Assembly: GCF_009914755.1 (NCBI RefSeq)
Contig: NC_060934.1
From: the human T2T-CHM13v2.0 reference genome, Homo sapiens
Length of the DNA stretch: 64,000 nucleotides
Strand: one strand, 5' to 3'
The notes beneath the pieces are model-generated. The model was not told the DNA's origin and made no database searches. It saw nothing but the letters and a program-made list of their open reading frames with translations. Positions 18,471 to 38,215 of this stretch are shown here, piece by piece; the first letter of the stretch is position 1; the number at the start of each line of letters is the position of its first letter. The position numbers were made by a program, and so were the translations under genes.

Positions 18471-19350
18471 AAAACAGTGTAGAAAGAGATTGTCCATTTT
18501 CTCTGGTTGTCTCAGAGCTCAGGGCTTGTGTTCAGGGGATGTTTGTTAGAGTTTTAAAACTATAAATGATATATTTACTGATGAAATAGTGTATTCAATT
18601 TGGCCTGGATTCCTTAATACTCTGGCTCTTTTCATCTTTGCTATTTGCATGTCCCCACAGCTCAAGAACATCTCATAGCCTCAGCAAAGTTAACAGAGAC
18701 GGCATCCACAAAAAATCAGACAGAGGGAGCAAATGGCAACACTGGAACAGCCCTGCCAAATGAAATTACATGTCTGGCTTACACACACACGTGGGAAATA
18801 ATACCACAAAACAGAACAAAGACCCTTTGTTCTGTCTTCTATGCATTTTTCCACCCTATGAGAAGCTAAAAGATCTTCCCAGAATGAATGCTCCAGCAGA
18901 AAGAATTGGAGTGGCTTCTGAAAACAACACTTCCTCTAGAAAATAGCAATAGAGCCTGAAGGTGCGTTCATTAAAATTATGAACTCAGTTGTCTTTCTCA
19001 GGGTTTTTCAAAGCCATAACTCCATAATTTAAGTGGGCAATATTATATCAATAAAAAAGATTTTTTTACATCAAGAATAAGACGATACATTTAAAAATGC
19101 TATAATCTATATGTTTAAATGCTTACTGGCTTAAGAATACTTTTCGCAATTTCAAGAAACAGTTTTGTTAGAAACAAAGTACATCATTGAAAATGAAATT
19201 AAAATTAAACTGCTAAGTTTTTCTGGCTGGGAACCTCAAGAGTGAGGCATCCTTGAGCAACTCTGGGTTCTACACGTCTGTTCCATAAAGCCTAATGGCA
19301 TCCCTGAATCAGTGAGAAACCAGGCACAGCTGACAGGGCACGTCTCCTAC

Positions 19351-19380
19351 CTGAAGCTTCATTTTCCAACAAGAATGCAT
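19351..19380 (-). CDS. MARCHF8: Candidate alternative first coding exon of MARCHF8 encoding MHSCWKMKLQ
   Basis: ATG CAT TCT TGT TGG AAA ATG AAG CTT CAG|GTAGGA; phase-0 donor, same phase as the canonical exon; peptide matches my recollection of the Xenopus March8 N-terminus. Confidence 0.75.
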
Positions 19381-19620
19381 TGGTGTGCGCTCAGTGCAGC
19401 GCTTCCCCGCAACATGGTCCCTGTGCTTGATGCCGGGGAACAGGCGCTGCCTGCACAGCAGCTGCCACCCTACAGCTGCCAGCAGCAGCACATGGCTGGC
19501 TGTCGCAGCTGGACTTGTGAGGGCTTGCTGAAGCCCTCAGCATACCACTCCTGCCATCAAACTGGACTACTTCCTCCAGCTGATTTTCAAGGAACGAGGC
19601 AGTGAATGAATAATTCATGA
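19381..19620 (-). promoter_or_regulatory. Candidate internal promoter / 5' UTR for the alternative exon
   Basis: Non-repetitive, locally GC-richer sequence with several CpGs and clustered CAGCTG E-boxes. Confidence 0.5.
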
Positions 19621-38113: not shown

Positions 38114-38215
38114 CTGTTCTTCCCTCTCCTTTTCTTTGGTCTTACTTCTGTAGACTCTAGCAGAGATGGCATCCTGGGATGGAATGGCAGAGATCTGATG
38201 CAGTGGCATGCTCAT
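38114..38215 (-). CDS. MARCHF8: MARCHF8 first canonical coding segment, residues 1-34 ([34 protein letters not shown])
   Basis: Translation recognised as the human MARCH8 N-terminus; donor CAG|GTACTG at 38113, phase 0; downstream exons lie left of the window. Confidence 0.96.

What the first reader, a model, noticed from the sequence alone, without database searches (positions are those of the whole stretch)
19351..19380. Hidden alternative first coding exon giving MARCH8 a different N-terminus (MHSCWKMKLQ)
Seen: about 19 kb into the intron after the canonical ATG exon, the minus strand reads ATG CAT TCT TGT TGG AAA ATG AAG CTT CAG|GTAGGA. This is a 10-codon frame ending in a phase-0 donor, the same phase as the canonical EEQ|GT, so it could splice in frame to the next exon. 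Recalled, not checked: human MARCH8 continues NEKTLGH after EEQ, and Xenopus March8 begins MHSCWKMKLQNEKTLGH. Inference: this is an ancient alternative N-terminus retained in the human intron, replacing 34 residues with 10 (4 if the better-context AAAATGA Met is used). MARCH8 down-regulates MHC-II, CD86, transferrin receptor and viral glycoproteins. From recall, N-terminal isoforms of the paralog MARCH1 differ in activity, so this isoform could differ in stability or substrates. It may already exist in predicted transcript models.
Basis: partly seen in the sequence, partly recalled or inferred. Interest (0 to 1): 0.85.

Follow-up and report, generated by a model that had tools for sequence, protein, structure and literature searches.

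The report
Conserved alternative MARCHF8 N-terminal exon
A ten-codon stretch inside a human MARCHF8 intron is the human copy of an alternative protein start that gene models use from sharks to macaques, but whether human cells use it could not be tested here.

Summary
Window 19380-19351 (minus strand) reads ATG..CAG|GTAGGA and encodes MHSCWKMKLQ. The donor is phase 0. The next MARCHF8 exon (NEKTLGHFMSHSSNISK, 24.9 kb downstream, outside the window) has a phase-0 acceptor, so the join is in frame.

The shape alone is not special: 8 such mini-ORFs lie in the window. The peptide is. 78 of 197 MARCH8 proteins retrieved carry the decapeptide directly before the next exon, 42 of them identical to human. 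They include macaque (267 aa), rodents, birds, a turtle, frogs, axolotl, a caecilian, teleosts and sharks. The back-translated heptapeptide CWKMKLQ matches once in the 3.1-Gb genome, at this site.

In birds and frogs the same exon also serves as an in-frame cassette after the canonical start exon. The human upstream sequence still aligns with that cassette.

So this is the human orthologue of an ancient alternative 5' coding exon, already annotated in many species. It is missing from the 13 human RefSeq transcripts in the hub's table. Human transcription, start site, translation and function were not testable. Mammalian models with it are few. Moderate interest.

The parts
19351..19380 (-). 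Alternative 5' coding segment of MARCHF8: ATG (19380-19378) plus 9 codons, MHSCWKMKLQ. A second in-frame ATG (Met7) lies at 19362-19360.
   Evidence: sequence and translation; the same decapeptide sits at residue 1 in 48 retrieved vertebrate MARCH8 proteins and internally in 30; unique in the genome.
19345..19350 (-). Splice donor GTAGGA after CAG, phase 0. It matches the recalled MAG|GTRAGT consensus at 7 of 9 positions; the canonical CAG|GTACTG donor matches at 6 of 9.
   Evidence: read from the sequence; the consensus is recalled. In the orthologous proteins the peptide is followed directly by the next exon (NEK..).
19381..19479 (-). Upstream part of the exon region. It is open in the same frame (AAVGWQLLCRQRLFPGIKHRDHVAGKRCTERTP) and homologous to the 5' part of the bird/frog cassette exon (ANVGQ...DT[HL]). 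In human it is either 5'UTR or former coding sequence.
   Evidence: MAFFT alignment with 11 bird, frog and rodent segments; tblastn of pigeon, eagle and other N-termini against the window, 19536-19351, E 6e-7 to 3e-6 in a small database.
19480..19539 (-). Rest of the open frame (GLQQALTSPAATASHVLLL) up to the in-frame TGA at 19539-19537. GLQQA matches pigeon MAMLFGLQQA. The in-frame ATG at 19557 is closed by this TGA after 6 codons.
19359..19415 (-). Out-of-frame upstream ORF: ATG at 19415, 18 codons, TGA at 19361-19359 overlapping Met7 as AATGA. It matters only if the transcript starts upstream of 19415.
   Evidence: Its use is not tested.
38114..38215 (-). Canonical first coding exon part ([36 protein letters not shown], phase 0). 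The alternative exon would replace it.
   Evidence: and the hub's annotation table.

Best explanation
Window 19351-19380 (minus strand), with about 130-190 bases upstream of it, is the human orthologue of an alternative 5' coding exon of MARCHF8 that dates back at least to the common ancestor of jawed vertebrates.

Proposed mechanism: a transcript includes this exon but not the canonical ATG exon. It either starts just upstream in the intron or is spliced in from a 5'UTR exon. Translation starts at the ATG at 19380. Leaky scanning or reinitiation could instead use Met7 at 19362. The phase-0 donor at 19351|19350 joins the phase-0 acceptor of the NEKTLGH exon 24.9 kb downstream. The product would be a 267-residue MARCH8 in which the first 34 residues, including the lysine-rich KTKEKEREE stretch, are replaced by MHSCWKMKLQ. 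The RING-CH domain and both transmembrane helices are unchanged.

Shown here: the sequence, the frame compatibility, the orthology and the deep conservation. Inferred: purifying selection on the peptide as protein. Not shown: a human transcript, its start site, translation, or any functional difference. By analogy with MARCH1.1/1.2, the most likely effect is on protein turnover or autoubiquitination and on the range of substrates, together with separate transcriptional control.
For: 1. ATG, 10 codons, a phase-0 GT donor, and a phase-0 acceptor on the next exon.
2; a search with the human RING exon returned vertebrate MARCH8 proteins. Macaca mulatta P0033 (267 aa, cluster of 9 member sequences) begins MHSCWKMKLQ|NEKTLGH.
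42 are identical to human. Met1, Cys4, Trp5 and Gln10 are invariant in 78 of 78. Position 2 varies (H/N/Q), and position 9 is L or I.
4. Taxa named: sharks and a sawfish (Chiloscyllium, Rhincodon, Pristis), eel, zebrafish, carps and many other teleosts, axolotl, a caecilian, more than 10 frogs, Caretta, more than 15 birds, macaque, Jaculus and Callospermophilus.
5. Residues 2-6, upstream of Met7, are conserved as amino acids. Two pipefish/seahorse proteins have lost Met7 but kept Met1. This favours Met1 as the start.
6; the CWKMKLQ back-translation occurs once in 3.1 Gb, control 0.
7; the homology extends about 100-185 nt upstream, in frame.
8; there is no in-frame ATG between the upstream TGA and Met1.
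9; a local GC peak (0.59-0.60 at 19300-19600) stands in AT-rich intron (0.26-0.45), as expected for an exon-like island.
Against: - No human transcript evidence could be consulted. The hub's RefSeq table (13 transcripts) has no exon here.
- Mammalian models with this exon are few in what was retrieved: the macaque cluster (9 members), Callospermophilus (5) and Jaculus (3). Canonical mammalian clusters have up to 118 members.
- In rodents the peptide is drifting: MRSCWKMELQ and MYSCWKMKLQ. Naked mole-rat has VQSCCRMKLQ, with Met1 lost. This hints at relaxed constraint in mammals.
- Met1 has a poor start context (caccaATGc). If the transcript starts upstream of 19415 there are 1 to 7 upstream ATGs, and one uORF overlaps the start.
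- There is no CpG island or clear TATA box upstream (read by eye).
- No cluster with this start carries the tags 'lgn' or 'ena', which mark unnamed short contigs, although canonical human-like clusters do. The meaning of those tags is not given by the tool, so this is weak.
- DNA of other vertebrates was not available. Synonymous versus non-synonymous change could not be measured.
Confidence: 0.8

Rival explanations
1. It is an orthologous exon but a relic in human. It was conserved through most of vertebrate history and is now not used, or gives only rare, unproductive transcripts. Its intact state in primates would reflect a short time of neutral drift.
For: The exon is absent from the 13 human RefSeq transcripts (hub table). 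Few mammalian models carry it, and the peptide is decaying in three rodent lineages. Met1 has a weak context and upstream ATGs are present. From recalled neutral rates, 30 bases staying unchanged at the protein level since the primate-rodent split is unlikely but not extreme, roughly 1 in 10 (inference).
Against: Human and macaque keep 10 of 10 residues, the ATG and the GT donor, identical to birds, frogs and eel. Gene models in macaque and two rodents do use the exon. Such models normally rest on transcript data (recalled, not checked).
Confidence: 0.2
2. In human it acts as an internal cassette exon between the canonical ATG exon and the NEKTLGH exon, as in birds and frogs. It would add about 37-59 residues rather than replace the N-terminus.
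For: 30 of the 78 proteins carry the peptide internally. Ostrich, falcon, chicken and several frogs read canonical ..EEQ + ANVGQ...DT[HL]MHSCWKMKLQ + NEK... The human frame is open for 62 codons upstream of the donor. Six upstream AG sites (first exon base at 19527, 19461, 19446, 19425, 19401 or 19389) would keep the frame open.
Against: At the position homologous to the bird/frog exon start (A-N-V-G, human A-A-V-G) the human sequence has ctg|gca, with no AG. The nearest AG (ggcag|CTG TAG) gives an immediate stop. None of the in-frame AG sites has a good pyrimidine tract, 7-13 of 20. An open frame of 52 extra codons at 60% GC is expected by chance about 1 time in 5 (own estimate). All three mammalian models with an intact Met1 start at residue 1.
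Confidence: 0.08
3. The conservation is due to a non-coding function of the DNA or RNA, such as an intronic enhancer or a splicing or regulatory element. The reading frame would be incidental.
For: Conservation extends into the upstream 100-185 bases, which in human are probably not coding. No DNA of other species was available to test codon periodicity.
Against: The variation follows protein logic. Met1, Cys4, Trp5 and Gln10 are invariant in 78 of 78. Exchanges are conservative (L/I at position 9, H/N/Q at position 2). The exon always ends in phase with the next exon. Dozens of independent gene models translate it.
Confidence: 0.04
4. It is a chance ATG-to-GT mini-ORF with no relation to MARCH8 coding.
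For: 8 mini-ORFs of this shape occur in the window.
Against: The decapeptide is identical to the start of MARCH8 proteins from shark-level relatives upward. It lies in the right intron, on the right strand and in the right phase. The heptapeptide pattern is unique in the genome.
Confidence: 0.01

Closest known systems
Macaca mulatta MARCH8, 267 aa (UniRef name A0A5F7ZI54_MACMU; P0033, cluster of 9 member sequences)
   Same: It begins MHSCWKMKLQ followed by NEKTLGH. Its length equals the human 291-aa form minus 34 plus 10. The first 17 residues are the same as the human exon plus the human next exon.
   Different: It is a database model of another primate. Residue 18 is S where human has F. No human entry with this start was seen by name, and the cluster members cannot be listed with the tools at hand.
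Short and long MARCHF8 isoforms starting M[HNQ]SCWKMK[LI]Q in other vertebrates (e.g. Danio rerio X6/X8 P0166/P0165, Xenopus laevis X2 P0117, Gallus gallus P0124, Ambystoma P0122, Rhincodon P0158)
   Same: They share the decapeptide and the same junction to NEK[TAP]LGH. The rest of the protein is the same as the canonical isoform.
   Different: The isoform is annotated commonly in fish, amphibians and birds but rarely in mammals. Many are long forms (about 537-547 aa) that carry the large extra exon after ..SSQDIC.
Bird and frog cassette isoforms (e.g. Struthio camelus X1 P0082, Falco P0087, Engystomops P0133, Mixophyes P0141)
   Same: The same exon end (..MHSCWKMKLQ|NEK). The human upstream sequence aligns with their ANVGQ..DT[HL] part.
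   Different: In those species the exon is internal and read in frame from the canonical start, adding 43-44 residues. The human sequence lacks an AG at the homologous acceptor position.
Human MARCH1 isoforms 1.1 and 1.2 (Villalon-Letelier et al. 2022, PMC9697684)
   Same: MARCH1 is the paralogous ligase. The two isoforms differ only in the N-terminal cytoplasmic sequence. The first 16 residues of one isoform lower protein level and block restriction of influenza A virus and down-regulation of CD44 and CD81 (abstract and discussion read). This is a working model for what a MARCH8 N-terminal swap could do.
   Different: It is a different gene, and no sequence similarity of the N-termini was shown here. 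The CWKMKLQ pattern has no second site in the genome. No functional data exist for MARCH8 N-terminal isoforms in the papers found.

Membership tests
Orthologues of the MARCHF8 alternative 5' coding exon (M[HNQ]SCWKMK[LI]Q) | Decapeptide sequence with invariant M1, C4, W5 and Q10 | tested here: met
   (human MHSCWKMKLQ); 42 of 78 pattern-bearing proteins are identical, with position-by-position counts.
Orthologues of the MARCHF8 alternative 5' coding exon (M[HNQ]SCWKMK[LI]Q) | Lies on the gene strand between the canonical ATG exon and the NEKTLGH exon | tested here: met
   for human positions (38114 > 19351 > -5580). The order canonical - cassette - NEK in bird and frog proteins agrees. Genomic positions in other species were not available.
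Orthologues of the MARCHF8 alternative 5' coding exon (M[HNQ]SCWKMK[LI]Q) | GT donor directly after the Gln10 codon, in phase with the acceptor of the next exon | tested here: met
   (CAG|GTAGGA). (cag|AAT GAG, phase 0).
Orthologues of the MARCHF8 alternative 5' coding exon (M[HNQ]SCWKMK[LI]Q) | Usable start: ATG present, with no open in-frame ATG further upstream | tested here: met
   the frame is open 52 codons upstream without a Met. In-frame ATGs at 19557, 19629 and 19668 are each closed by stops.
Orthologues of the MARCHF8 alternative 5' coding exon (M[HNQ]SCWKMK[LI]Q) | Transcript that joins this exon to the next exon in the species concerned (human) | not testable with these tools
   No RNA-seq, CAGE or GENCODE data were at hand. 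The hub's RefSeq table lists no exon at 19351-19380.
Orthologues of the MARCHF8 alternative 5' coding exon (M[HNQ]SCWKMK[LI]Q) | Codon-wise (synonymous-biased) conservation at the DNA level | not testable with these tools
   No vertebrate genome other than the window's own is held. Only protein-level patterns are available.
Alternative-promoter N-terminal isoforms of the MARCH1/MARCH8 pair (as MARCH1.1/1.2) | Own transcription start upstream of the alternative exon | tested here: inconclusive
   a GC-rich patch but no CpG island (6 CpG in about 180 bases, counted by eye), no clear TATA box, and several upstream ATGs. Sequence alone cannot place a start site.
Alternative-promoter N-terminal isoforms of the MARCH1/MARCH8 pair (as MARCH1.1/1.2) | Isoforms differ in stability or substrate range | not tested
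   Shown only for MARCH1 (PMC9697684). No MARCH8 data were found.

The most novel reading that the evidence does not exclude
Human cells, perhaps only certain tissues or developmental stages, make a 267-residue MARCH8 from an internal, non-CpG-island promoter. Its N-terminal decapeptide has been kept almost unchanged for roughly 450 million years (dating recalled). The decapeptide would be a functional short motif, for example a turnover or autoubiquitination signal, a lipidation signal or a partner-binding signal. It would give this isoform a different half-life or substrate range from the 291-residue form used in nearly all MARCH8 experiments, as found for MARCH1.1 versus MARCH1.2.
Probability: 0.3. 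Interest if true: 0.6.

Novelty: new member of a known kind. Interest (0 to 1): 0.45.

Why it matters
MARCH8 removes MHC-II, CD86, the transferrin receptor and many viral envelope glycoproteins from the cell surface (reviews PMC10501654 and PMC4897099, passages read; PMC9697684, introduction read). The reviews and papers I could search treat human MARCH8 as a single protein. None of them describes N-terminal isoforms of it.

For the paralogue MARCH1, swapping the N-terminal cytoplasmic sequence changes protein level, CD44/CD81 down-regulation and influenza restriction (PMC9697684). A second MARCH8 start, conserved from sharks to primates, means two N-termini have been kept side by side for a very long time. 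That argues each has a job.

If the human exon is used, overexpression and knock-down studies, antibodies and start-codon-directed reagents may have missed one isoform. If it is not used in human, it is a clear case of an ancient isoform being lost in mammals. Either way the answer is one database look-up and one junction search away.

Tried and rejected
2; a 40-residue window translation ending in the decapeptide found no candidate at all. later showed that the database holds dozens of proteins with the exact decapeptide. One search was therefore a false negative of the word index and is not evidence of absence.
3; a full-text paper search for the decapeptide gave 0 papers.
4; searches for MARCH8/MARCHF8 with 'isoform' and 'alternative', 'alternative promoter' or 'transcript variant' gave nothing on MARCH8 N-terminal isoforms. 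Passages were checked in PMC10920915 (citations in the reference list only), PMC10501654, PMC12583688 (MARCH8 promoter methylation, no alternative start), PMC3410884 and PMC4897099.
5; the zebrafish/Xenopus March8 paper PMC3994051 does not say which isoform was cloned.
6. AlphaFold2 on 13 short isoforms gave mean pLDDT 44.1 and pTM 0.23, with residues 1-53 below 50. Nothing can be said about structure of the N-terminus.
8; a weak tblastn match of a squirrel-specific alternative start (P0118) about 1 kb upstream of the NEKTLGH exon has no ATG-to-GT architecture in human and was dropped. Other bird-specific exons (VRQPQ.., RLLTLV..) had no convincing human match in the window or the 34 kb downstream.
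9. A paralogous exon in MARCHF1 was looked for only through the CWKMKLQ pattern (none). A diverged counterpart is not excluded.
10. Chance ORF: rejected, see rivals.

Full report
**1. The observation**

The minus strand of the window at 19380-19351 reads ATG CAT TCT TGT TGG AAA ATG AAG CTT CAG and is followed by GTAGGA. It translates to MHSCWKMKLQ. The canonical first coding exon is at 38215-38114. It encodes 34 residues ending ..EREEQ and is followed by GTACTG, so both donors are phase 0. The window is G000:C10:46376001-46440000 of a held 3.1-Gb assembly.

I fetched the 34 kb downstream of the window on the gene strand and found the next exon at C10:46370420-46370370, window -5580 to -5630. 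It reads ttcttgcag|AAT GAG AAG ... TCT AAG|gtagag, 51 nt, phase 0 on both sides, encoding NEKTLGHFMSHSSNISK. A splice from 19351 to that acceptor, an intron of about 24.9 kb, is therefore in frame.

**2. Is it more than chance?**

The bare shape is common. Eight ATG-to-AG|GTRRG phase-0 mini-ORFs of 4-61 codons lie in the window, and one has exactly 10 codons.

The peptide is not common. I searched the 5.8-billion-protein collection with the human RING-CH exon (L003:1456-1635, 60 aa). It returned 1315 hits, of which the best 120 were listed. By the names the sources gave, almost all were vertebrate MARCH8. Their N-termini showed the decapeptide at residue 1 in several proteins:
- Macaca mulatta, P0033, 267 aa.
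- A pigeon 'isoform B', P0043, 264 aa, 33 member sequences.
- Harpy and crested eagles.
- With one or two changes: Xenopus laevis X2, Caretta, Jaculus and Callospermophilus.

A profile of six such N-termini (A1) then found 472 hits, 120 listed. Of these, 48 are at residue 1 and 30 internal, and 42 are identical to the human decapeptide. Met1, Cys4, Trp5 and Gln10 are invariant in 78 of 78. Position 2 is H 57, N 13, Q 4. Position 9 is L 54, I 23.

Not counted in the 78:
- Two naked mole-rat proteins with a degenerate VQSCCRMKLQ.
- Two stickleback proteins with a two-residue gap.
- One minnow model that starts at Met7.

By the names, the carriers include three cartilaginous fishes, eel, cyprinids, characins and many other teleosts, axolotl, a caecilian, more than ten frogs, a sea turtle, more than fifteen birds, one primate cluster and rodents.

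The degenerate DNA pattern for CWKMKLQ matches once in the whole human assembly, at this site, with 0 for the reversed control. The surrounding 151 bases are single-copy.

One negative result must be set aside. A search with a 40-residue window translation ending in the decapeptide found no candidate. This is a false negative of the word index, because the same database demonstrably holds these proteins.

**3. What it is**

It is the human orthologue of an alternative 5' coding exon of MARCHF8, present at least since the common ancestor of cartilaginous and bony vertebrates. The macaque protein of 267 aa is exactly what the human splice would give (291-34+10).

The exon is more than ten codons. 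In ostrich, falcon, chicken, kiwi, parrots and several frogs the proteins read canonical ..EEQ + ANVGQ...DT[HL]MHSCWKMKLQ + NEK... In those species it is an in-frame cassette of 43-44 codons. Pigeon models that start just upstream read MAMLFGLQQANVG...

The human in-frame translation upstream of Met1 is open for 52 codons: GLQQALTSPAATASHVLLLAAVGWQLLCRQRLFPGIKHRDHVAGKRCTERTP. It aligns with the bird and frog cassette at AAVG~ANVG, LL, RLF and H.A.G. tblastn of bird N-termini hits 19536-19351 at E 6e-7 to 3e-6 in a small database. So about 130-185 bases are recognisably conserved, the last 30 almost perfectly.

The region is a GC peak (0.59-0.60) in AT-rich intron. It is not among the repeat stretches listed by the hub.

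**4. How it most likely works in human**

The likeliest reading is an alternative start. A transcript that contains this exon but not the canonical ATG exon would be translated from the ATG at 19380 and spliced to the NEKTLGH exon. Several points support Met1 as the start:
- Residues 2-6 are conserved as amino acids.
- Syngnathid fishes have lost Met7 but kept Met1.
- No in-frame Met lies between the upstream TGA (19539-19537) and Met1.

Met1 sits in caccaATGc, which is weak. Met7 sits in gaaaATGa, with A at -3.

If the mRNA begins upstream of 19415 it carries an out-of-frame uORF of 18 codons. Its TGA overlaps Met7 as AATGA. Further upstream ATGs lie at 19493, 19543, 19557, 19618, 19629 and 19668. 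Translation could then be inefficient or shifted to Met7. This is inference only.

A cassette use in human looks less likely:
- At the position homologous to the bird/frog acceptor the human sequence is ctg|gca, without an AG.
- The nearest AG would read CTG TAG.
- The six AG sites that keep the frame open have poor pyrimidine tracts.

I could not place a transcription start. There is no CpG island and no clear TATA box.

On function, the swap removes 34 conserved residues, including KTKEKEREE, and adds ten, including Cys4, Trp5, Lys6 and Lys8. The RING-CH and membrane parts are untouched. By analogy with MARCH1, I expect an effect on turnover or autoubiquitination and on the substrate range, plus separate transcriptional control. 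In MARCH1 the two isoforms differ only in the N-terminal cytoplasmic sequence, and the first 16 residues of one isoform lower protein level and block restriction of influenza A virus and CD44/CD81 down-regulation (PMC9697684; abstract, introduction and discussion read). This was not tested here. An AlphaFold2 model of the short isoform was too poor to use (mean pLDDT 44.1, residues 1-53 below 50).

**5. Evidence against present use in human**

- The hub's table of 13 RefSeq transcripts has no exon here.
- Among what was retrieved, mammalian clusters with this start are few and small: macaque 9 members, Callospermophilus 5, Jaculus 3, naked mole-rat 4 and 3. Canonical mammalian clusters reach 118 members. 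Only the best 120 of each search were visible, and clustering at 90% hides species.
- The rodent copies are drifting, and the naked mole-rat copy has lost Met1.
- With recalled neutral rates, identity of 10 codons since the amniote ancestor cannot be neutral. Identity since the primate-rodent split could be, roughly 1 in 10 (inference).

So orthology and long-term selection are firm. Current human function is open.

**6. Comparison with what is known, and novelty**

As an exon of vertebrate MARCHF8 it is already in public gene models of dozens of species. The human copy is not in the RefSeq table given. I could not consult GENCODE, Ensembl or UniProt for human, and the members of the macaque cluster cannot be listed.

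In print I found nothing. There were 0 papers with the peptide. No paper on MARCH8 N-terminal isoforms or alternative promoters turned up among the hits, nor in the passages read. Subscription journals and supplements were not searched.

I file it as a new (human) member of a known kind. Interest is moderate. It is a neat, very old pair of alternative N-termini in an immunologically and virologically important ligase, unstudied as far as I could see. It is also likely already visible in some annotation sets, and it has no human expression evidence yet.

Noticed in passing
window 19359-19415 (-): An out-of-frame uORF (ATG at 19415, 18 codons) ends with a TGA that overlaps the second in-frame Met of the alternative exon as AATGA. 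If it lies in the mRNA it could favour reinitiation at Met7.
   Followed up: partly
proteins P0082, P0087, P0125, P0130, P0133, P0141: In birds and frogs the same exon is used as an in-frame 43-44-codon cassette between the canonical start exon and the NEK exon. Its start, ANVGQ, is conserved between frogs and birds. The exon therefore has two modes of use in those groups.
   Followed up: partly
proteins P0168 and P0171: Naked mole-rat models read ..GTRVQSCCRMKLQ|NEKTLGH from an upstream ATG. Met1 is lost and Trp5 has become Cys, a sign of relaxed constraint on this exon in at least one rodent.
   Followed up: no
proteins P0111, P0114, P0115, P0120: Loggerhead turtle models named cytochrome P450 2H2/2C39 (918-966 aa) carry both a P450 domain and the MARCH8 RING-CH domain. 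They are probably read-through or merged gene models of neighbouring genes.
   Followed up: no
L015 8271-8321 (-), i.e. window -5630 to -5580: The exon after the alternative exon is only 51 nt, phase 0 on both sides, and contains an in-frame ATG (..GHFMSHS..). Some retrieved models (rat P0098, a woodpecker P0017) start at that Met.
   Followed up: no
The search for homologous proteins: A query whose last 10 residues are identical to the start of dozens of database proteins returned 'no candidate shares three 5-residue words'. Short exact matches at a protein's very start can be missed by this tool.
   Followed up: yes
window 19300-19600: A 300-base patch at GC 0.59-0.60 stands out from AT-rich intron (0.26-0.45). 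It coincides with the conserved exon region and is not a CpG island (about 6 CpG in 180 bases, counted by eye).
   Followed up: partly
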